In this document: piece after piece, positions 1,386 to 64,000 of the stretch | Layout of the letters: every line of letters starts with the position of its first letter | Position numbering within the stretch: position 1 is the stretch's first letter | NCBI GenBank assembly: GCA_964605665.1 | Contig: CAZSDP010000022.1 | Span: forward strand, 11,238-75,237 | Origin: an uncultured Planctomycetia bacterium | GTDB lineage: Bacteria; Planctomycetota; UBA8108; UBA1146 | DNA: 64,000 nucleotides | Direction: 5' to 3' | Program-made: the position numbers and the translations under genes | The notes under the pieces: generated by a model | The model's database searches: none | Told to the model about the DNA's origin: nothing | What the model saw: the letters and a program-made list of their open reading frames with translations, nothing else

Positions 1386-1681
1386 CCCGTACTCCCAACC
1401 AAGAGATTCGTATCGGACACGACATCATCGTTCGCGTCCTCGAAGTGAAGGGGGATCGGGTTCGAATCGGAATCGATGCCCCAACCGAAGTGAGTGTGCA
1501 CCGTGAAGAAGTGTACCTCGAGATCGCCAAGGCGAACCGAGAGGCCACCGACGTGGCTGCTCCAGGTCTTGCTGAGGTCCTCGAAATCGCCCGCGAGAAG
1601 AGTGAGATCGAATCGCCCAAGACCGCTCTTCGTCCACTCTCCAAGGGCGCGTCTGGTGCGGAGGTGAATCATGGGACTTAG
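1373..1681 (+). CDS. csrA: Carbon storage regulator CsrA with a C-terminal extension of about 40 aa
   Basis: MLVLTRTPNQEIRIGHDIIVRVLEVKGDRVRIGIDAPTEVSVHREEVY matches the canonical CsrA fold sequence. Its last codons overlap the flagellin start. Confidence 0.9.
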   Translation: MLVLTRTPNQEIRIGHDIIVRVLEVKGDRVRIGIDAPTEVSVHREEVYLEIAKANREATDVAAPGLAEVLEIAREKSEIESPKTALRPLSKGASGAEVNHGT

Positions 1682-3128
1682 AATCAACAGTAACTTGCCC
1701 TCGATGATGGCGCTCCGTCGCCTTCAGGGGAGTAACGATCAATTGACCCGTTCGATGGAACGGCTTTCGACCGGTCTTCGGATCAACAGCGCCTCGGATG
1801 ATCCTTCGGGACTGGTGATCTCTGAACAGCTGCGAGCGCAGATCCGCAGTCTCGAGCAGGCGGCGGACAACGCTTCCAATGCGAGCAACCTGCTACAGAC
1901 TGGTGAAGCAGCGCTCAACGAGATCAGCACTCTGCTCGTCTCGATGCGAGAAGCGGCGATCTACGCGCTCAACACCGGGGGGGCCTCGGCGGAACAGATT
2001 CGCGCCGAGCAAGGTGCGGTCGACCAGGCTCTCGAAGCGATCGATCGGATCGCGGCGACTACGCGTTTCGCCACGCGCAGCCTCTTCAATGGCGAGAGCG
2101 GTTTCGACATCGTCACTCGACCTCCAGAGATCACCGATCTCAATCCGATCTCGGTCACCTTTGATCCAAGTCAGCCGGTGACCACATTTGATCTCAGCGT
2201 TTCCCAGGCGGCCACCCAAGCGACCGTCGCTGCGGTCAATGGGGTTGGAGCGGCGACCAGTGGTGGAAGCGTCACCCTGCGCGTCTCGGGGCCGAATGGC
2301 ACCGAGGACATCACGATTCCCGATGCCGCGGACATCACTGCGGTGGCATCTGCCGTGAACCTCTTCCGCGGTTCGACCGGTGTCTACATCGACACCACCA
2401 CCGCCGAGTTCGTCACCGAAGAGTACGGCTCTGCCATCGACTTGCGAATCGAGCAGGTGGGCGGTCCGGGGACCTATCTCGGAGCCGGCGGACAGATCGC
2501 TGCGGTCGGGGATTTCGTGAGCGCCTCTGGCGTCGATGCCGTCGCCAATCTCAATGGTGTCAACGTCACCGCCATCGGCAATCGCCTTTCGGTCGTCTCT
2601 TCCGTCTTTGCGGGAACGATCGATTTGGTCGAGGGCACCGGGCCCGGTACTTACCAATTCCAAATCGGTCAGTCGGGACTTCGTTTCCAGATCTCCGACG
2701 GAACGACCGCGAATGATCAAGCGGTGATCGGCCTTCCTGCGCTCTACTCTTCCAATCTTGGACGCCAGGAGATCACCAGCGGTGGTCAGCAGAAGTTCGG
2801 TTTCCTCTCGTCACTGAGTTCCGGTTCAGCGAACGACCTCTTCAATGATCCTGCAAATGCTCTGCGGATCATCGATAGTGCGATCGATCAGCTCTCCGGA
2901 GTGCGCGCGTATCTCGGAGCGTTTGTGAACGACAACATCGAACCGACGCTGCGTGAGCTCGCGGTCCATATGGAGAATCTGACCGCCAGTGAATCGACGA
3001 TTCGCGATACCGACATCGCCAAGGAGACCGCCGAGTTGGCGCGCGCTCAAGTGATGTATCAGGCGGGGATTTCCGTCATGAGTCAGGCGAATCAGATTCC
3101 TGCTTCGATCTTGCAGCTGCTGCAATAA
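1671..3128 (+). CDS. fliC: Flagellin (copy 1)
   Basis: N-terminus MGLRINSNLPSMMALRRLQGSNDQLTRSMERLSTGLRINSASDDPSG and C-terminus ...AQVMYQAGISVMSQANQIPASILQLLQ are the conserved flagellin D0/D1 segments. A GGAGGTGA Shine-Dalgarno sequence lies 7 nt upstream. Confidence 0.9.
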   Translation: MGLRINSNLPSMMALRRLQGSNDQLTRSMERLSTGLRINSASDDPSGLVISEQLRAQIRSLEQAADNASNASNLLQTGEAALNEISTLLVSMREAAIYALNTGGASAEQIRAEQGAVDQALEAIDRIAATTRFATRSLFNGESGFDIVTRPPEITDLNPISVTFDPSQPVTTFDLSVSQAATQATVAAVNGVGAATSGGSVTLRVSGPNGTEDITIPDAADITAVASAVNLFRGSTGVYIDTTTAEFVTEEYGSAIDLRIEQVGGPGTYLGAGGQIAAVGDFVSASGVDAVANLNGVNVTAIGNRLSVVSSVFAGTIDLVEGTGPGTYQFQIGQSGLRFQISDGTTANDQAVIGLPALYSSNLGRQEITSGGQQKFGFLSSLSSGSANDLFNDPANALRIIDSAIDQLSGVRAYLGAFVNDNIEPTLRELAVHMENLTASESTIRDTDIAKETAELARAQVMYQAGISVMSQANQIPASILQLLQ

Positions 3129-3555: not shown

Positions 3556-5040
3556 ATGGGTCTTCGGATCAACACCAACGTTTCCGCGATGGGTGCACTT
3601 CGCAATCTGCACCGTGCGGACAATCTTCAGCAGAGCTCTCTCGAGCGCCTTTCCACCGGTCTGCGCATCAATCGCGCATCGGACGACCCATCCGGGTTCG
3701 TCATCTCCGAGCAGCTGCGCGCCCAAATCCGCGGCATGGAGCAGGCGGCTGAAAACTCCCAGAACGCTTCCAATCTGATGGGCACCGCTGAGGCGGCCCT
3801 CAGTGAGGTCAACTCGCTCCTGATGAGCATCCGCGAGTCGGTGGTTTTCGCCATGAACTCCGGCGGCAATGACGCCGCTCAGATCGATGCAGAGCAGGAC
3901 GCGATCGATAACGCCTTGCGCTCGATCGACCGTATCTCGCAAACCACCCGCTTCGGCACCCGTAATCTGCTCGATGGATCGAGTGGCATCAGCGCGAATG
4001 CGATCAGCGCCTCGATCGAAGATATCGCAGTGCAGAGCGTCACGTTCGATGACATGAGCACCGCGAATCAGACCTTCACCGTCAACCTGACCACCGCAGC
4101 CTCGCAGGCGAACCTGAGTGGCACAACGGCTAGTGGCGGAGGTAACTTCGGTACCTTCACAAGCACCGCGGCCGATACGACCTTGCGCATCACCGGTGCG
4201 TTGGGAACACGCGATGTCGTCATCATGCAGGGCGCAACCGCTGCCGAATTCGCGACCGCAGTGAACACCTTTACCTCGGAGACCGGCATCTATGTCGATG
4301 GAACGACAAATGAGCTGGTCAGCACTGAGTACGGTTCCTCGCAGTCTGCTTCGGTGGAAGTTGTTTCAGGTGATATCACCACCAGCATCCAAGCGAATGC
4401 GACCTCCGGCATCTTCAGCGATACGGGTACCGACGCGGTTGGTGACGTGAATGGAATCACCTTCAAGGCGGATGGATTCAACCTGCGGGTGGTCTCCGAC
4501 GTTCTGTCGGCGGATCTCCGTTTGGCGTCGAACACCGCAGTGGGCGCCCACACCTTCACCGTCGAAAATGACGGGTTGGTTTTCCAGCTGAATCAGTCCT
4601 ATTCGACCGCCGACCGAGAACAGGTTGGACTCAAGAATGTCTCCACCAATCTTCTCGGTTCTCAAGAGCGCACCGTCACTGGAATGAATGGTGCCAGCCT
4701 CACGATCGGTGGTTTCCTTTCTTCCTTGATGTCGGGCGAAGCGAATGATCTCGGATCTGATCCAGCGAATGCGCTTCGTATCATCGATGAAGCGATCGCA
4801 GAGGTCAGCGACCATCGTGCCTATCTCGGCGCGTTCCAGTCGCAGACGGTCGACACGAATCTCAGTTCACTCCGAGTGGCGATCGAGAACCTCACCGCGA
4901 GCGAGTCCGCGATCCGCGATCTCGACTTCGCCGCGGAGTCGGCGGCATTCACCCGCAACCAGATCTTGTACCAATCGGGCATCGCTGTTCTTGCTCAGTC
5001 GAATCTGATCAGTCAGTCGGTGTTGACCCTTCTCGGATAA
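3556..5040 (+). CDS. Flagellin (copy 2)
   Basis: MGLRINTNVSAMGALRNLHRADNLQQSSLERLSTGLRINRASDDPSG ... C-terminus ILYQSGIAVLAQSNLISQSVLTLLG. Paralog of copy 1 with a divergent central region. Confidence 0.9.
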   Translation: MGLRINTNVSAMGALRNLHRADNLQQSSLERLSTGLRINRASDDPSGFVISEQLRAQIRGMEQAAENSQNASNLMGTAEAALSEVNSLLMSIRESVVFAMNSGGNDAAQIDAEQDAIDNALRSIDRISQTTRFGTRNLLDGSSGISANAISASIEDIAVQSVTFDDMSTANQTFTVNLTTAASQANLSGTTASGGGNFGTFTSTAADTTLRITGALGTRDVVIMQGATAAEFATAVNTFTSETGIYVDGTTNELVSTEYGSSQSASVEVVSGDITTSIQANATSGIFSDTGTDAVGDVNGITFKADGFNLRVVSDVLSADLRLASNTAVGAHTFTVENDGLVFQLNQSYSTADREQVGLKNVSTNLLGSQERTVTGMNGASLTIGGFLSSLMSGEANDLGSDPANALRIIDEAIAEVSDHRAYLGAFQSQTVDTNLSSLRVAIENLTASESAIRDLDFAAESAAFTRNQILYQSGIAVLAQSNLISQSVLTLLG

Positions 5041-14392: not shown

Positions 14393-15434
14393 TCGATCGA
14401 TCAATCTTCTCGCCCTCTTGTTGGTGGTCTTCGGTCTCACCTATCTTCTGACCAGTGATCCGAAGGTGGCGGGTCGGGAGCCTCCTCCCGATGCGATTTC
14501 ACGACTGGAGACGGTCGATGCCTCTACTGTGAACGCGATCGAGATCTCCCAAGGAGGTGACTCTGTCTCCATCGAGCGCGATGGGGATGGTTGGGTGGCG
14601 ACCTCTCGCTTTGGAGTTGCCGCCGATCCGGTCAAAGTGAGCACCTTGATCGATCTGATCTTGCTGATTTCGTCGGGTCAGAAGCGCGCTTCCAGCGATG
14701 CGGCGCATCGATCGTTCGAAGTCGACGCAGAGAAAGGCTATCGCATTCAGTTGCGAGGAGAGGGAGAGGGACTTCCGATCGATGTCACCATCGGAAAAGT
14801 CGATGGATTCGACCGGGTCTACGTGAGATTCGATGACGGAGCCGACGTCTATTCGGTCCTTCCAAACCTCCGATATGGAGCGGGGCTTTCGCCGAAATTT
14901 CTCATCGATGATTGGCTCGATCGGATCGTATTGGCGATCCCCGAAGAGGCTGAGATCGCCTCCTTTCGCTTCGAAACCGAAGATCGATCGATCCTCCTCG
15001 AGCATCTCGAAACAGAGACGAAGACTCCTGACGGAGAATCGGCGACCACCGTCAACTGGACCGTCACCGAACCGGAAACCTTCGAAGCGGATCCCGCCAT
15101 CGTGCGTGGTCTGGTGAGCAACGTTCAGCAGGTGCGGGCGAACACGGTGGTCGATCCCGCCAAGGTTTCTGAGACCGGTCTCGAGTCGCCGACCGGCCTT
15201 CTGACGATTTCACTGAAGAATGGTGAGACGAAGGTGCTCGAGTTCGGTGGTGAAGGAGAGATCGTAGGGGGGCAGAAGGTGACCTACGGTCGTCTCCGTG
15301 GAGATCCGCGGATCTTTGGGTTGCCGATTTGGACCGCGACCAACTTGTTGAAGACGGTCGATCAGCTGCGCCCCGCGCCTCCTGAACCGGTCGATCCACC
15401 GCAGGAGGCGACACCTGCTCCACCAGGAGGGTGA
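14382..15434 (+). CDS. DUF4340-like protein (frequent partner of GldG)
   Basis: N-terminal TM. Repeated beta-rich modules. Overlaps the gldG-like stop. Conserved neighbourhood (established knowledge). Confidence 0.6.
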   Translation: MPSNRSINLLALLLVVFGLTYLLTSDPKVAGREPPPDAISRLETVDASTVNAIEISQGGDSVSIERDGDGWVATSRFGVAADPVKVSTLIDLILLISSGQKRASSDAAHRSFEVDAEKGYRIQLRGEGEGLPIDVTIGKVDGFDRVYVRFDDGADVYSVLPNLRYGAGLSPKFLIDDWLDRIVLAIPEEAEIASFRFETEDRSILLEHLETETKTPDGESATTVNWTVTEPETFEADPAIVRGLVSNVQQVRANTVVDPAKVSETGLESPTGLLTISLKNGETKVLEFGGEGEIVGGQKVTYGRLRGDPRIFGLPIWTATNLLKTVDQLRPAPPEPVDPPQEATPAPPGG

Positions 15435-45210: not shown

Positions 45211-46275
45211 TCAGGCGTCGGGGTCGGTGGGGCGGACCCGATCGAGAAGTTGCACCACCTGGCGGTTTTTTTGGGTGTAGGGGGTGCCGCGGAATTTGCG
45301 CCGTCCTTGAATCGACAGCGTGATCGGCTGATCTTGCGGATGTCCGGTATCGAGGATATCGCCAGGTCGAAGCGTCAGCAGATCGTAGAGGCTGACCGGG
45401 GTTTCCGCGAGGACCGCGGAGAGCTCGATCGGTGCGTTCGCGATGTTCCCGAGGATTCGGTCGCGGCTCGCTCCACCTTCACGTGATCGGCTCGAAGAGA
45501 ACCAGTTGCTCTGGGAGAACTCCGGCATAATCGGCTCGATCACTTTAAAGGGGATGCAGAGGTTCACCATCCCTGAGTAATCACCCATCATCAGTTCGAA
45601 GCTGAGCAATACGATCGGTTCGTTCGGCGCGACGATCTGCAGCAGGAAGGGGTTCGATTCCCGTTCGAAGATCTGGAAGTCGATCTCCTTCACGCTCTCC
45701 CAAGTCTCACGGAGCTGCTGGATCATCCGGTCGAGCACCGTATTGACCAACCCCAGTTCGATGTTGGTGAAGGGGCGCTCGAGGTAGAGCGCCTCCGATT
45801 TTCCACCACCGAGGAGTCGATCGATGATCGGGTACAAGATCGACGGATTCACTTCGAGGATGATGTTTCCCTCGAGTGGTTCGCAGGTCAGCAAGTTGAA
45901 GGAGGTTGGAATCGGCAATGACATCGTGAATTCGGAGTAGGTGAATTGCTCCACCGAAACCAACCGAACCTCCACGATGTGCCGGAGGTAACCGGAGAGG
46001 GATGCGCTGAGATTTCTCGCGAAGACTTCGTGTAATGCTTCGAGCGCGATCACTTGGCTCTTGGAGACGCGCTCCGGTCGCTTGAAGTCGTAGATCGAGA
46101 TTTGATGGGAGGGGAGCGGGTTGTATTTCTCAACGGCGCGCTGGGAATCTGGGGATTGCTCCTCGACCGCTTCCGCCGTTTCGGCGACCGCGGATTTCTT
46201 CGACTCTCCGCCCGGGCTCGACTGAGCGAGGTGCATCAGCGCCTCGACCTCGTCTGGTTTGAGCGGTTCGGGCAT
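45211..46275 (-). CDS. fliM: Flagellar motor switch protein FliM (isolated from other flagellar genes)
   Basis: LGG motif, ...FLLQIVAPNEPIVLLSFELMMGDYSGMVNLCIPFKVIEPI..., and a C-terminal SpoA/FliN-like domain. Confidence 0.85.
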   Translation of the reverse strand: MPEPLKPDEVEALMHLAQSSPGGESKKSAVAETAEAVEEQSPDSQRAVEKYNPLPSHQISIYDFKRPERVSKSQVIALEALHEVFARNLSASLSGYLRHIVEVRLVSVEQFTYSEFTMSLPIPTSFNLLTCEPLEGNIILEVNPSILYPIIDRLLGGGKSEALYLERPFTNIELGLVNTVLDRMIQQLRETWESVKEIDFQIFERESNPFLLQIVAPNEPIVLLSFELMMGDYSGMVNLCIPFKVIEPIMPEFSQSNWFSSSRSREGGASRDRILGNIANAPIELSAVLAETPVSLYDLLTLRPGDILDTGHPQDQPITLSIQGRRKFRGTPYTQKNRQVVQLLDRVRPTDPDA

Positions 46276-46461
46276 TCGAGAGCTCTCTTTCTCAGGATCC
46301 CCGCAGGCGCGACTGCGGGTCATTCGATCGCAGAGACCCTCGCTCGGCGCATCGAGACCATATCTTAGCTATCGGCGCGACGCGGTTCCGGCTCCACCCG
46401 GAATTTTGCCCACCGGCGAAATTCTCCCTCTGACGACCAGCCACTCCCTAGCAGCAGATCC

Positions 46462-60702: not shown

Positions 60703-60993
60703 ATGAGTGACTCTGCTGGCTCACAGCCCATTGGCCCGATCGCCTTGTACACCGCAGATTGGTGCCCTGCCTGCCGTCCTGCCAAGCAGTTCTTGGAAGA
60801 GCATGGGGTGGAATACACCGCCATCGACATCGATCAAGATCGGTCTGCGGCCGAGGAGCTGGAAGCGGCGACGGGGAAGATGGGGATTCCATTCCTCAAA
60901 ATCGGCGAAACCTGGGTCCAGGCCTACACCCCCGGCGGGGGCCCTTTTCCGCGAGAAAAGGTGGCGGAAGCTCTGGGAATTCCCCGAGTTTAG
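60703..60993 (+). CDS. Glutaredoxin-like protein
   Basis: IALYTADWCPACRPAKQFLEEHGVEYTAIDID...GIPFLKIG. Active site CPAC. GGAGCGG Shine-Dalgarno sequence upstream. Confidence 0.8.
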   Translation: MSDSAGSQPIGPIALYTADWCPACRPAKQFLEEHGVEYTAIDIDQDRSAAEELEAATGKMGIPFLKIGETWVQAYTPGGGPFPREKVAEALGIPRV

Positions 60994-61177
60994 CAGGAGT
61001 TCGGGTACTTCATCGGCTCGAGCCTCCTCCCGCTCAGTTTCACCTTTGCCGAGTGGGAACGATTCCTTCTCCCTTTTCGTTACAATCGAGCGCCGCTGGC
61101 GGCGCTTCGTCCTGCGCAGGCAGCGTCCGCTTCTCTATGACCGGTCCCGAGACCACATTTCCCCGACGGAGGGTTCC

Positions 61178-64000
61178 TTGATCGACGAAGTGACCGATGC
61201 GGCGAGACGCCGCAATACTCCCTTCAGGATTCTCCTCATCCTCCTCTCAATCTCCCTCGTGGGTGGAGCCTTTGCGGACGAGTCCTCGTTCGATTCAGTC
61301 AAAAGCGCTGCTGATGGCACGGTGAAACTGACCGCAAAAGGGGTCGATGGAGTCGCTCCTGGTGCGAGCTTCAAACTGGTTGTCGAGGTAGAGCTCGATC
61401 GCGGCTGGCATATCTACGGATCGAAGCTCAATCCTGATCTCGGAATTCCGACACAATTCTCTGTCACCGATCCCAATCCCTTCCAGGCTGATGGTGAGCT
61501 CCAGGAGTCGAAGCCCCACGAGCGTTTCGACTCGGTGATGGAAGGAACGATGATCGAGCATGAGAAGGAGGCGACCTTCTCGCTCCCCTTCAAGGTGCCG
61601 GATACGGTGGAACCGGGCCTCTATACCGTTGGAGCTTCCTTCGTCCTTCAAGCCTGCGACGCGATGATGTGTTTGCCCCCCGAGACCCTCTCCCTCGAAT
61701 TCAAGGTTCGCGTGACGGAGGCGAGTGGCGACAAGAGCTCAGCCACCAAAGCTGAAGCGCTTTCCCTCGTGCAAGAACTCGGCGGAGGCGAGGAGATGCC
61801 CGTTGTGGTTCGGGGCAAAGGGGTCGAAGGCGTCTCTCCTGGAGGAGCGTTCGAGATCGTGGTCGAGGCGGAGATCGATCGCGGGTGGCACCTCTATTCG
61901 CTCTTCATTTCGCCAGACTTGGGGGTGCCCACCCAGCTGACTCCCCTCAAGGCCGCCCCATTTGTTGCGTTGGCAGCGAAAGAGCCGAAGCCTCATGCTC
62001 GTAAAGATGATGCGACGGGAGAGACTTATCTCGAGCACGATGGAACGGTTCAGTTTCGGCTTCCGTTCACCGTGCCAGCGGATGTCACGGCGGGGACTTA
62101 TTCGGTTCAAGTCTCCTTCATCACGCAACTTTGCGACGCGATGATGTGTCTCAATCCCGAAGAGTTCGTCTTCGACCTCCCGGTGATCGTGGGCGACAGT
62201 GCGGCCTCCGGTCAATCCTCGACCTCTACCAGGAGCTCGGTTGCTGCGGTCGAAGAGAACTCCGGACCGATCTTCTTCACCGCTCGTTTCGACCGATCCC
62301 AAGTGCGTGAAGGGGAAGAGGTCACCATCGAGTTCGAGGGCGAGGTTGTCGAAGAGAAGAAGCGGATTCCCGCGATCGAAAAAGACATCTCGAAGCAGGG
62401 GTTGTGGGGGATCATCCTCCTCAGTGCTTCGGGGGCATTGATCGCACTCTTGACCCCCTGCGTCTACCCGATGATCCCGATCACGATCAGTGTTTTTACC
62501 AAGCAAGCTCATCAAAAGCGTTCCGCTGTCGTCGGATTGGCGTTCCTCTTCTGCTTCGGCGTGATGGCGAGCTTTACCACTCTAGGACTCGTTCTCAGCG
62601 CGGTGCTCGGTGAAAATGGCGCCAATTTCATGGCGACCAATCCGGTGGTGAACTTTGCCATCGGAGCGTTGTTCATCTACTTCGCATTCAGCTTGTTCGG
62701 CTACTACGACGTCCAGCTTCCTGCTTTCCTTCGCAATCGAGTCGCCAGCAGCGGACAAGGGGGCGGAGTCGCCAGCGTCTTGGTGATGGGCTTTGTCTTC
62801 AGTGTGACCACCTTCACCTGCGTCGGCCCGATCGCTGCGGCGCTGCTCGCTTTGGCAGCGGGGGCGGGTCCCGGCTATGCAGCGATCGGGATGCTCGCCT
62901 TTTCGGGGACTTTCGCACTCCCCTTCTTCTTCCTCGCACTCTTTCCCAAAGCGCTGACCGGACTCCCGCGATCGGGGGGATGGCTCAGCACGGTGAAGGG
63001 AATCCTGGGGTTCATCGAGCTTCTAGCGGCTTGGAAATTCCTCAGCGCCACGATCGGTCGGACCGGACTCGACGTGGTGATTTCGCGAGAAGTGATCTAC
63101 GGAATCTGGGGGGTGACCCTCCTCCTGATGACGCTGTACCTCTTTGGCAAGGTGCGCTTTCCACATGATCCTCCCTTACGAAAGATCGGGGCGGGAAGAG
63201 TTCTCTTGGCGATCGTGTTTTTGATTTGCGCTGCCTTCTGTTTCTGGGCGGTCACCGGCAAGCGATTGAATGCGAACTTGGAGTCGCAACTGTTGGTGAA
63301 GTCATTCTACAAGAGTGAAGCCAAGCTCGATTGGCGGGTGCTACAGGTTCCGGAAGATCCCGATGAGCCACTGGTCCTCTACGCAGATGAGATTCAGAAG
63401 ATCCGCGACCAGGTCGCTGCCGGAGGATCGAAGAAACCGATCTTTATCAACTTCACCGGCCATGTCTGACAGAACTGTCGGGCGATGGAGTCGGAGAGTG
63501 GCATCCTCCATCAACCCGAAGTCGAAGAGTTACTTCGACAATTCGAGCTTTTTGAGATCTTCACTGACGACCCGCGAGAGCTTCCATATGCCGCGGTTCA
63601 AAAGGCGGTGACTGGCTACAACGCCAACCCGACCTACATCGTTCTCGATTCTGAGAATCATCTTGAGGTCGCCCGGATTTCGTTCACCAACTCGAAGCAG
63701 GAGTTCATCGACTTCCTGAAGAAGGGACTCACCGATCGCCCAGCGTTTATCAGTCAGGTTCGATTCACCGGAGTCGAACTCGAGGAGCGGGGAGAAGCGG
63801 TCACCGTGCTGACGGAGCGTGGGGTGATGGAATCGACCGAGGGAACTCTCGAGTCCTACGACGGTGAAGAGGTCTATGCCTACCGCGGTTCATTCTCCGG
63901 TCGTCAGACCTTCCGGGTGGCGCGAGATCTCGATGGGAAGTATCCGATCACGGTGCATTTGGTGACGGGACTCTACTCAGGAGATGAACGTCAAGAGACG
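61178..64000 (+). CDS. dsbD: DsbD-family thiol:disulfide interchange protein with duplicated N-terminal DsbD-alpha domains. An in-frame TGA at 63467-63469 is proposed to be selenocysteine (U-Q-N-C). 3' end lies beyond the window.
   Basis: TTG start 4 nt after GGAGGG. Signal peptide RILLILLSISLVGGAFA. Two CDAMMCL motifs. Central TM domain with LTPCVYPMIP and FTCVGP. The frame stays open for 176 codons after the TGA and encodes a thioredoxin-like domain. Confidence 0.55.
63480..63517 (+). other. SECIS-like hairpin GGGcGATGGAG-(15-nt loop)-CTCCATCaaCCC starting 11 nt 3' of the in-frame UGA
   Basis: Inverted repeat read from the sequence. Its position matches bacterial SECIS placement (established knowledge). 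Not computationally verified. Confidence 0.3.

What the first reader, a model, noticed from the sequence alone, without database searches (positions are those of the whole stretch)
63440..64000. Candidate selenoprotein: UGA at the first Cys of the DsbD thioredoxin CXXC motif, with a SECIS-like hairpin
The DsbD-family ORF ends ...KKPIFINFTGHV-TGA (63467-63469). The same frame then runs open for all remaining 176 codons: QNCRAMESESGILHQPEVEELLRQFELFEIFTDDPRELPYAAVQKAVTGYNANPTYIVLDSENHLEVARISFTNSKQEFIDFLKKGL... This has strong GC3 codon bias and reads as the rest of a DsbD gamma (thioredoxin-fold) domain. In canonical DsbD the motif is ...DFTADWCxxC... Here the TGA occupies the first (nucleophilic) Cys position, giving U-Q-N-C, the typical placement of Sec in thioredoxin-fold selenoproteins. 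A hairpin, GGGcGATGGAG-15 nt-CTCCATCaaCCC, starts 11 nt after the UGA, where bacterial SECIS elements lie. A glutaredoxin-like gene (CPAC) is immediately upstream, so this looks like a small thiol-redox module. If the UGA is a true stop, DsbD would lack its catalytic C-terminal domain and the downstream ORF would be a thioredoxin domain missing its N-terminal Cys. A Sec-containing DsbD would be unusual.
Basis: partly seen in the sequence, partly recalled or inferred. Interest (0 to 1): 0.85.

Follow-up and report, generated by a model that had tools for sequence, protein, structure and literature searches.

The report
Selenocysteine-containing DsbD in marine Planctomycetota
The "stop" codon inside this membrane disulfide-reductase gene (DsbD) is almost certainly read as selenocysteine, so two database genes are really one selenoprotein; the recoding type is familiar, but this protein architecture is not yet catalogued.

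Summary
A DsbD-like ORF (signal peptide, two DsbD_N domains, DsbD_TM) ends at TGA 63467-63469, and the same frame stays open to the window end.

- **Conservation:** the TGA is present in all 25 distinct homologous sequences from marine Planctomycetota MAGs. It is flanked by F-x-N-F-T-G-H-x-[TGA]-x-N-C-R/K-x-M-E. The five codons between the TGA and the ATG used by gene callers vary synonymously, so they are translated.
- **Cys homologues:** single-ORF homologues with Cys (P0035, PDB 3f9u, Neisseria DsbD gamma) align colinearly across the TGA and place the first Cys of CxxC on it.
- **No reassignment:** TGA is the commonest normal stop in the window.
- **SECIS:** a hairpin at 63479-63518 meets the published bacterial SECIS constraints. 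It is more stable than synonymous recoding predicts, as is a second hairpin at 63521-63539.
- **Second selenoprotein:** sister-clade loci carry another conserved TGA gene, related to selenoprotein "DG", with a GGUC-loop hairpin.
- **Conserved neighbour:** a cytoplasmic glutaredoxin-like gene lies directly upstream.

Not tested: selA, selB, selC and selD in the genome. None is in the window.

A Sec form of full-length DsbD is absent from NCBIfam and from a 2026 inventory of 119 families. GOS 2008 listed UxxC "thiol disulfide interchange" reads. Verdict: new member of a known kind.

The parts
60703..60993 (+). Glutaredoxin-like gene (96 aa, WCPAC, no signal peptide). It lies directly upstream on the same strand and is conserved next to the DsbD gene in relatives.
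   Evidence: Pfam Glutaredoxin E=6e-15. NCBIfam GlrX_YruB E=8e-19. tblastn finds it directly upstream of the DsbD gene in 21 further distinct loci, with motif WCP[ADS]C.
61178..63466 (+). First 763 codons of the DsbD-like selenoprotein gene. The likely start is TTG 61178 after GGAGG at 61166-61170, or GTG 61190. It encodes a signal peptide, two DsbD_N (alpha) domains each with CDAMMC, and an eight-helix DsbD_TM (beta) domain with Cys in TPCVYP and FTCVGP. The thioredoxin-like gamma domain begins here.
   Evidence: DsbD_N best stretch falls at about 61358-61690, and the second copy at about 61797-62190. DsbD_TM covers 62423-63046.
63467..63469 (+). In-frame TGA, read as selenocysteine (residue 764 counting from 61178). 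It occupies the first position of a U-Q-N-C redox motif.
   Evidence: TGA in 25 of 25 distinct homologous sequences. It aligns to Cys in P0035, 3f9u and 6dnl.
63470..64000 (+). Continuation of the same ORF: QNC (Cys codon 63476-63478), the rest of the gamma thioredoxin fold to about 63715, then a C-terminal beta-sandwich domain from about 63752. It runs off the window. The identical contig L001 adds 14 codons and a stop.
   Evidence: Gene callers annotate 63485 onward as a separate 185-aa hypothetical protein (P0001).
63479..63518 (+). Hairpin 1, the candidate bacterial SECIS. Lower stem CGGG/CCCG, upper stem GAUGGAG/CUCCAUC, and an apical region holding the family-invariant U-GG-N-A.
   Evidence: Fold. 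It passes the bSECIS constraints with spacing 26 nt, an 8-nt loop starting with G, and -19.0 kcal/mol. Synonymous-codon null gives z=-2.03 in the window and a family mean of -2.1. Compensatory changes appear at alignment columns 21/55, 24/52 and 30/46.
63521..63539 (+). Hairpin 2 (GUCGAAG-AGUUA-CUUCGAC), a second conserved stem-loop just after hairpin 1. Its role is unknown.
   Evidence: Synonymous-codon null gives z=-1.52 in the window and a family mean of -1.87, against controls of -0.11 +/- 1.0. There is a CG to UA double change at columns 63/76 in 5 sequences. The pairing register differs between clades.

Best explanation
Bases 61178 to beyond 64000 are one gene of about 954 codons. It encodes a DsbD-type transmembrane thiol:disulfide reductase whose periplasmic thioredoxin-like gamma domain carries U-Q-N-C instead of C-x-x-C.

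UGA 63467-63469 is recoded to selenocysteine. SelB with Sec-tRNA(Sec) would be recruited by the hairpin at 63479-63518 while the ribosome is on the UGA.

By analogy with E. coli DsbD, electrons would enter from the cytoplasm. The donor is probably the conserved glutaredoxin-like protein encoded directly upstream. Electrons would pass to the Cys pair of the membrane domain (C428/C548). They would then move to the Sec/Cys pair of the gamma domain, to the Cys pairs of the two N-terminal Ig-like alpha domains, and on to periplasmic clients.

Sec sits at the position of the nucleophilic first cysteine, where its low pKa and good leaving-group character should speed both exchange steps.

Shown here: gene continuity across the UGA, conservation of the UGA, the hairpin, and the domain and cysteine inventory. 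Inferred: Sec as the inserted residue, the electron path, and the donor.
For: 1. The TGA is present in 25/25 distinct sequences spanning 44-66% protein identity. Its neighbours are conserved through synonymous change: Asn AAC/AAT 12:13, Cys TGT/TGC 8:17, and Arg in five different codons.
2. One continuous BLASTP alignment (E=7e-60, 337 columns) joins the read-through product to the single-ORF Cys homologue P0035: FTGHV[U]QNCRAME against FTGYQCTNCRWME. PDB 3f9u (FTGYGCVNCRKME) and Neisseria DsbD gamma 6dnl behave the same way.
3. Three thioredoxin-clan Pfam models and NCBIfam DsbD PRK00293 (residues 295-790) straddle the TGA.
4. TGA ends 26 of 38 long ORFs in the window, so the recoding is site-specific.
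5. Hairpin 1 satisfies the bSECIS constraints quoted in PMC13188914. 19/25 family members pass, against 19.5% of all TGA triplets in the window.
6. Both hairpins are more stable than synonymous recodings of the same peptides.
7. An exhaustive phmmer search of 1.84 billion representatives finds the downstream part almost only as ~185-aa orphan ORFs. None has a start of its own upstream of the conserved Met.
8. Sixteen sister-clade loci hold a second gene with a conserved in-frame TGA. Its best NCBIfam hit is (seleno)protein DG (E=5e-11). In the loci folded, a 6-7 bp stem with a GGUC loop follows 20 nt after the UGA in two, and a weaker form in a third.
9. Sec-decoding gene sets are documented in other Planctomycetes (PMC4807772).
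Against: - No selA, selB, selD or tRNA-Sec was found in the 64-kb window or in about 530 kb of related loci. The rest of the genome could not be searched.
- The bSECIS criteria are permissive: 1 in 5 random TGAs pass.
- For the window alone the structure excess is modest (z=-2.0 and -1.5).
- RNAalifold found only a 4-bp consensus, because the lower stem and the register differ between clades.
- The structure I counted was derived from these same sequences.
- The 25 sequences are phylogenetically related, so the counts are not independent.
- No close Cys orthologue exists; the nearest is 34% identical.
- The second TGA gene was not found in the window's own clade.
Confidence: 0.85

Rival explanations
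1. The TGA is a genuine stop. The organism would make a DsbD lacking its gamma domain, plus a separate 185-aa protein started at ATG 63485, as every gene caller annotates.
For: TGA is the normal stop here. The ATG is present in 25/25 sequences. Public annotation calls two genes. UGA recoding is never complete, so a truncated product is probably made as well (PMC4513850 abstract).
Against: - The 15 nt between the TGA and the ATG evolve like codons in the upstream frame.
- The stop is never TAA or TAG in 25 sequences.
- The ATG is the internal Met of C-x-N-C-R-x-M-E in Cys homologues.
- The 185-aa product would lack strand 1 and the nucleophile of its thioredoxin fold.
- It has no signal peptide, although the domain works in the periplasm.
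- Modelled alone, its N-terminal half has low confidence, and Foldseek finds no significant match.
- No Shine-Dalgarno motif precedes the ATG.
Confidence: 0.07
2. The UGA is read through, but by something other than the Sec machinery. One route would be near-cognate tRNA-Trp or tRNA-Cys decoding stimulated by the downstream hairpins, giving W/C-x-x-C.
For: No Sec machinery has been seen for this genome. Structured RNA after a stop can promote read-through (general knowledge).
Against: - The position is the catalytic Cys of a CxxC motif, the classical Sec site.
- The hairpin has the spacing and G-first loop of bacterial SECIS elements.
- A second TGA gene related to a catalogued selenoprotein, with a GGUC loop, is present in sister genomes.
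- A Cys codon would be the simpler way to obtain Cys.
Confidence: 0.05
3. Sequencing or assembly error, or a recently inactivated pseudogene.
For: A single in-frame stop seen in one read of raw sequence.
Against: Three independent assemblies give an identical sequence. The TGA is kept in 25 distinct sequences from more than 20 species-level MAGs, with purifying selection on both sides.
Confidence: 0.01

Closest known systems
E. coli / Neisseria DsbD (alpha-beta-gamma thiol:disulfide interchange protein)
   Same: Signal peptide, an Ig-like DsbD_N domain with a Cys pair, a DsbD_TM domain with two Cys, and a C-terminal thioredoxin-like domain whose redox motif aligns.
   Different: Sec replaces the first Cys of the gamma CxxC. 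There are two tandem alpha domains, each with C-x4-C. An extra ~100-aa beta-sandwich follows gamma. The NCBIfam DsbD score is 125.6 bits against a cutoff of 330.
Bacteroides 'exported cytochrome c biogenesis-related protein' 3f9u and the single-ORF homologue P0035 (Cys forms)
   Same: These have the closest sequence motif, F-T-G-Y-x-C-x-N-C-R-x-M-E. P0035 is colinear from the membrane domain through gamma.
   Different: They carry Cys rather than Sec. P0035 ends after gamma, without the C-terminal beta-sandwich.
[quoted passage not shown]
   Same: A UxxC motif in a thioredoxin-clan domain. cd02953 is the DsbD-gamma model in CDD (from my memory). The GOS reads are marine, like these MAGs.
   Different: Those entries are defined by a thioredoxin-like domain only, in Deltaproteobacteria or on short reads. 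PF13098 matches here only below its threshold (21.6 against 27 bits). No sequence with the NFTGH/UQNCR motif was found in the stored part of the GOS dataset, and that file is truncated.
TsoB, rhodanese/DsbD fusion-like selenoprotein (NF045694)
   Same: A selenoprotein built on a DsbD membrane domain. It is the best NCBIfam hit to the membrane part.
   Different: TsoB has a rhodanese domain and a UxxxxU motif with two Sec. The score here is 126.6 bits against a cutoff of 805, so this is not a member.

Membership tests
Bacterial selenoprotein (UGA recoded to Sec) | In-frame UGA that aligns with Cys in homologues | tested here: met
   P0035, 3f9u and 6dnl place Cys on the TGA.
Bacterial selenoprotein (UGA recoded to Sec) | Protein-level conservation on both sides of the UGA, in frame, in several species | tested here: met
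   25 distinct sequences, with synonymous variation in the flanking codons.
Bacterial selenoprotein (UGA recoded to Sec) | [quoted passage not shown] | tested here: met
   My own approximate implementation, not bSECISearch. The window passes with spacing 26, loop GAGUGGCA and -19.0 kcal/mol. 19/25 relatives pass. The background rate is 19.5%, so the criterion has low specificity. Excess stability over synonymous recodings adds support.
Bacterial selenoprotein (UGA recoded to Sec) | selA, selB, selC (tRNA-Sec) and selD in the same genome | not testable with these tools
   None in the window or the fetched loci. Indirect support comes from a second TGA gene related to selenoprotein DG in sister-clade loci.
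Bacterial selenoprotein (UGA recoded to Sec) | Selenium shown in the protein | not testable with these tools
   This needs an experiment.
DsbD family | Periplasmic N-terminal DsbD_N domain with a Cys pair | tested here: met
   Pfam DsbD_N E=6.7e-16, two stretches. Cys pairs C160/C165 and C319/C324.
DsbD family | DsbD_TM membrane domain with two conserved Cys | tested here: met
   Pfam DsbD_TM E=2.2e-26. C428 lies in TPCVYP and C548 in FTCVGP. Hydropathy shows seven clear helices plus one weaker segment.
DsbD family | C-terminal thioredoxin-like gamma domain with CxxC | tested here: inconclusive
   The domain is present only if the UGA is read. The motif is UxxC, not CxxC. Thioredoxin_7/_2 match at E=3.6e-5 and 2.9e-4, below Pfam gathering scores.
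DsbD family | Score above the NCBIfam PRK00293 cutoff (E. coli-type DsbD) | tested here: not met
   125.6 bits against 330. This is a distant branch, not the E. coli subfamily.
TsoB (NF045694) | Rhodanese domain, UxxxxU motif and a model score >= 805 bits | tested here: not met
   126.6 bits, covering the membrane domain only. There is no rhodanese match.
'Thiol:disulfide interchange protein' selenoprotein (PF13098) / GOS Trx-like 2 (cd02953) | UxxC in a PF13098 / cd02953 domain | tested here: inconclusive
   UxxC is present. PF13098 matches at E=2.9e-4 over model positions 2-103 of 104, but below the gathering score. CDD is not available here.

The most novel reading that the evidence does not exclude
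The UGA, its two conserved hairpins and the conserved in-frame ATG five codons later might form a selenium-dependent switch.

With selenium, one alpha-alpha-beta-gamma(Sec) reductase would be made. Without selenium, termination would yield a gamma-less DsbD, possibly with re-initiation at the ATG giving a cytoplasmic gamma fragment with one Cys. Periplasmic reducing power would then be tuned to selenium supply.

Hairpin 2 would be a new accessory part of a two-hairpin bacterial SECIS, or a pausing element.
Probability: 0.1. Interest if true: 0.65.

Novelty: new member of a known kind. Interest (0 to 1): 0.45.

Why it matters
1. **Annotation.** In more than 20 species-level marine Planctomycetota genomes, public annotation splits this gene. 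It appears as a truncated DsbD plus a 'hypothetical protein'. NCBIfam has no model for it, so the error will propagate.

2. **Catalogue.** It would add a full-length DsbD (alpha-alpha-beta-gamma) to the list of selenoproteins. Sec would sit in the middle of a multi-step thiol-disulfide relay across the membrane. That is a natural experiment on how a selenylsulfide changes the rate and direction of electron flow in such a cascade.

3. **Pathway.** The conserved pairing with a cytoplasmic glutaredoxin-like gene points to a dedicated electron donor other than thioredoxin.

The recoding principle itself is ordinary. UxxC thioredoxin-fold selenoproteins are the commonest bacterial kind.

Tried and rejected
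- **Rfam** on 63300-63700 gave only chance hits. Rfam has no general bacterial SECIS model.
- **RNAalifold** on 25 sequences gave only 4 consensus pairs, so I named the structure myself. That biases the counts.
- **Read-through protein submission.** Structure prediction carries the same input rule, so only the downstream ORF alone was used.
- **Structure of the downstream ORF.** The AlphaFold model has pLDDT 76, and Foldseek against the PDB found nothing significant. This does not identify the C-terminal beta-sandwich.
- **Sec machinery.** Regex motifs for SelA, SelD and SelB found nothing in 595 kb. ARAGORN found no tRNA-Sec. NCBIfam on 20 window ORFs of suitable size found no sel gene.
- **Other in-frame TGA candidates in the window:** none were credible.
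- **GOS supplementary sequences:** the stored file is truncated and the motif was not found in it.
- **Genome-wide TGA reassignment** was considered and rejected.
- **TsoB membership** was considered and rejected.
- **SelD/SelB protein search.** I ran no further search on an E. coli SelD or SelB query. Proteobacterial hits would swamp any from these MAGs.
Full report
**1. The observation**

The sequence is as described. An ORF in frame with 61178 ends ...KKPIFINFTGHV-TGA at 63467-63469. The same frame then reads QNCRAMESESGILHQPEVEELL... and stays open for all 177 remaining codons.

The upstream ORF matches Pfam DsbD_TM (E=2.2e-26) and DsbD_N (E=6.7e-16, two stretches). A Thioredoxin_7 match and the NCBIfam DsbD model PRK00293 (residues 295-790) both straddle the TGA.

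Scanned alone, the segment around the TGA matches three thioredoxin-clan models, each running across the TGA position:
- Thioredoxin_7, E=3.6e-5
- Thioredoxin_2, E=2.9e-4, model positions 2-103 of 104
- Thioredoxin, E=0.009

The glutaredoxin-like gene is at 60703-60993.

**2. Is the TGA real and conserved?**

Three independent assemblies (JGI, TARA/ENA, ENA) have a sequence identical to the window over this region.

A protein search with the region spanning the TGA returned 21 hits. All were ~185-aa ORFs that begin at the Met six codons after the TGA.

I fetched the DNA around these hits and scanned one genome per species. This gave 33 loci, nearly all titled Planctomycetota MAGs from marine samples. 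In every locus that reaches the site, the codon is TGA. That makes 25 distinct sequences whose downstream proteins are 44-66% identical to the window's.

The flanks read F-x-N-F-T-G-H-x-[TGA]-[QA]-N-C-[RK]-x-M-E.

The five codons between the TGA and the ATG used by gene callers behave as codons:
- Asn is AAC or AAT (12:13).
- Cys is TGT or TGC (8:17).
- Arg appears as CGG, CGA, CGC, CGT or AGG.

An untranslated spacer would not evolve this way. The stop is never TAA or TAG.

TGA is also the commonest ordinary stop in the window, ending 26 of 38 long ORFs. This excludes a genome-wide reassignment.

**3. Homologues with cysteine**

- PDB 3f9u (Bacteroides 'exported cytochrome c biogenesis-related protein') aligns KPVMLDFTGYGCVNCRKME to KPIFINFTGHV[U]QNCRAME.
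- Neisseria DsbD gamma (6dnl) aligns its CISC motif in the same way.
- The exhaustive phmmer search of 1.84 billion representatives with the downstream ORF gave 17 hits. Nearly all were orphan ORFs of about 185 aa or shorter fragments. One was a fragment of a single-ORF DsbD (P0035) carrying FTGYQCTNCRWME.
- The read-through product aligns to P0035 in one continuous BLASTP alignment of 337 columns (34% identity, E=7e-60). The alignment runs from the membrane domain through the TGA to the end of gamma.

The Met that gene callers take as a start is therefore the internal Met of a motif shared with the Cys forms.

**4. The RNA after the TGA**

Hairpin 1 (63479-63518) has a lower stem CGGG/CCCG and an upper stem GAUGGAG/CUCCAUC. 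Its apical region holds U-GG-N-A, which is invariant in the family.

[quoted passage not shown] I implemented these approximately.
- The window passes with spacing 26, loop GAGUGGCA and -19.0 kcal/mol.
- 19 of 25 relatives pass. Most have a GGC, GGU or GGA triloop 24 nt after the UGA.
- 19.5% of all TGA triplets in the window also pass. The criterion alone is therefore weak.

A stricter test recodes each sequence with synonymous codons, keeping the peptide unchanged (a 75-nt version is).

| Region | Family mean z | Window z |
|---|---|---|
| Hairpin 1 | -2.1 | -2.03 |
| Hairpin 2 (63521-63539) | -1.87 | -1.52 |
| Control windows in the same genes | -0.11 +/- 1.0 | n/a |

On the structure I named, 76.5% of cells pair, against 28-45% when partners are slid. 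There are 23 double-change cells, against 9.1 in shuffles.

Several cautions apply:
- That structure came from these same sequences.
- RNAalifold alone finds only four consensus pairs.
- The lower stem of hairpin 1 and the register of hairpin 2 differ between clades.
- Rfam has nothing here.

**5. Does the lineage use Sec?**

I could not search whole genomes.
- The window has no tRNA at all.
- It has no SelA, SelD or SelB motifs.
- No sel gene is among 20 ORFs of suitable size.
- The fetched loci have no tRNA-Sec.

A scan for recurrent in-frame TGAs did find a second case in 16 sister-clade loci. It is a ~110-aa zinc-ribbon protein with VPGG-[TGA]-GT[KQ]LILAVA, located 2.6-7.9 kb from the DsbD gene.
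- tblastn alignments cross its TGA at 37-72% identity.
- Its best NCBIfam hit is 'zinc ribbon-containing (seleno)protein DG' (E=5e-11, below the cutoff).
- A hairpin follows its UGA. In L016 and L018 it is a 6-7 bp stem with a GGUC apical loop 20 nt downstream; a weaker form folds in L015 and not in L012.

This is independent evidence for Sec decoding in the sister clade. It says nothing directly about the window's own clade. Complete Sec gene sets are reported in other Planctomycetes (PMC4807772).

**6. Anatomy and likely mechanism**

Counting from TTG 61178, which is preceded by GGAGG:

| Feature | Residues |
|---|---|
| Signal peptide | 15-36 |
| Alpha 1 Cys pair | C160/C165 |
| Alpha 2 Cys pair | C319/C324 |
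| Membrane domain (seven clear helices plus one weaker segment) | C428 and C548 |
| Gamma redox pair | U764/C767 |
| Beta-sandwich (pLDDT 81-88, no significant PDB match) | about 100 residues |

With an N-terminal periplasmic domain and eight helices, gamma is periplasmic, as in DsbD. This is an inference from the family.

The downstream ORF on its own has no signal peptide. It could not reach the periplasm as a separate protein.

In E. coli DsbD (established knowledge, from memory), electrons pass from thioredoxin to beta, then gamma, then alpha, then DsbC, DsbG or CcmG. The first gamma cysteine is the attacking residue. Sec at that position should accelerate both exchanges.

The glutaredoxin-like gene (WCP[ADS]C, no signal peptide) lies directly upstream, on the same strand. 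This holds in the window and in 21 further distinct loci. It is absent in L004-L008. It is the obvious candidate for the cytoplasmic donor, again by inference.

In L004, L005 and L009, System I cytochrome c maturation genes (ccmE, ccmF) lie 4-9 kb downstream. This hints at one client pathway, but the linkage is not general.

**7. Comparison with what is known**

The 2026 inventory of 119 prokaryotic selenoprotein families (PMC13188914) has no alpha-beta-gamma DsbD. It lists two related entries:
- TsoB, a rhodanese/DsbD fusion with UxxxxU. The window protein scores 126.6 against a cutoff of 805 and has no rhodanese domain, so it is not a member.
[quoted passage not shown] From my memory, cd02953 is the DsbD-gamma model, so fragments of this or a similar family may have been seen then. 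I could not check this, because the stored supplement is truncated and the motif was not found in it.

No NCBIfam selenoprotein model fits the gamma domain. NCBI records name the downstream ORF 'hypothetical protein'.

**8. Verdict**

The reading as a selenoprotein is well supported (about 0.85). The mechanism is ordinary bacterial Sec recoding at a UxxC site.

What is new is the host protein, a full-length DsbD with doubled alpha domains and an extra C-terminal domain. It occurs in a whole clade of marine Planctomycetota and is mis-annotated throughout.

Interest is moderate. A selenoprotein specialist would not be surprised by the kind. A Sec in the middle of the DsbD relay is still a useful and uncatalogued case.

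Noticed in passing
L012 TGA at 14772 (-), L015 14688 (-), L016 12785 (-), L018 17833 (-), and 12 further loci; not in the window: A second conserved in-frame TGA gene: a ~110-aa zinc-ribbon protein with VPGG-U-GT[KQ]LILAVA ... CPAC ... CxDCG. Its best NCBIfam hit is (seleno)protein DG (NF049953), at E=5e-11 but below the cutoff. A hairpin follows the UGA; in L016/L018 it is a 6-7 bp stem with a GGUC loop 20 nt downstream. It looks like an unannotated, divergent member of that selenoprotein family in Planctomycetota.
   Followed up: partly
window 63521-63539, and the same place in all relatives: A second hairpin sits directly after the SECIS-like one. It is more stable than synonymous recoding predicts (family mean z=-1.87). 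It shows a CG to UA double change, and it is kept in a different pairing register in different clades. Its role is unknown: part of the SECIS, a pause site, or something else.
   Followed up: partly
window 63752 to beyond 64000 (P0001 residues 90-185): An extra C-terminal beta-sandwich domain follows the gamma domain. It is absent from the Cys homologue P0035 and has no Pfam or significant PDB match. A 1618-aa protein (P0031) matches this region in 8 repeated stretches.
   Followed up: partly
window 61358-61690 and about 61797-62190: Two tandem DsbD_N domains are present, each keeping a C-D-A-M-M-C pair. Classical DsbD has one alpha domain. The duplication recalls the two Ig-like lobes of ScsB-type proteins (from memory; not tested).
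   Followed up: no
L004 13945-20558, L005, and L009 18979-20558: System I cytochrome c maturation genes (ccmE, ccmF, ccmH, ccmA/B) lie 4-9 kb downstream of the Sec-DsbD gene in the window's closest relatives. The window ends before this region.
   Followed up: partly
window 1671-3128 and 3556-5040; 45211-46323: Two tandem flagellin genes (485 and 494 aa) and fliM are present. The organism is a flagellated planctomycete, and the window is otherwise housekeeping (ribBA, eno, tgt, ruvB, ispE, kdsA).
   Followed up: no
L010 (JAFMMO010000271.1) and L030 (QNYK01000104.1): Two loci carrying this planctomycete gene come from MAGs titled 'Proteobacteria bacterium' and 'Bacillota bacterium'. These are probably binning or labelling errors.
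   Followed up: no
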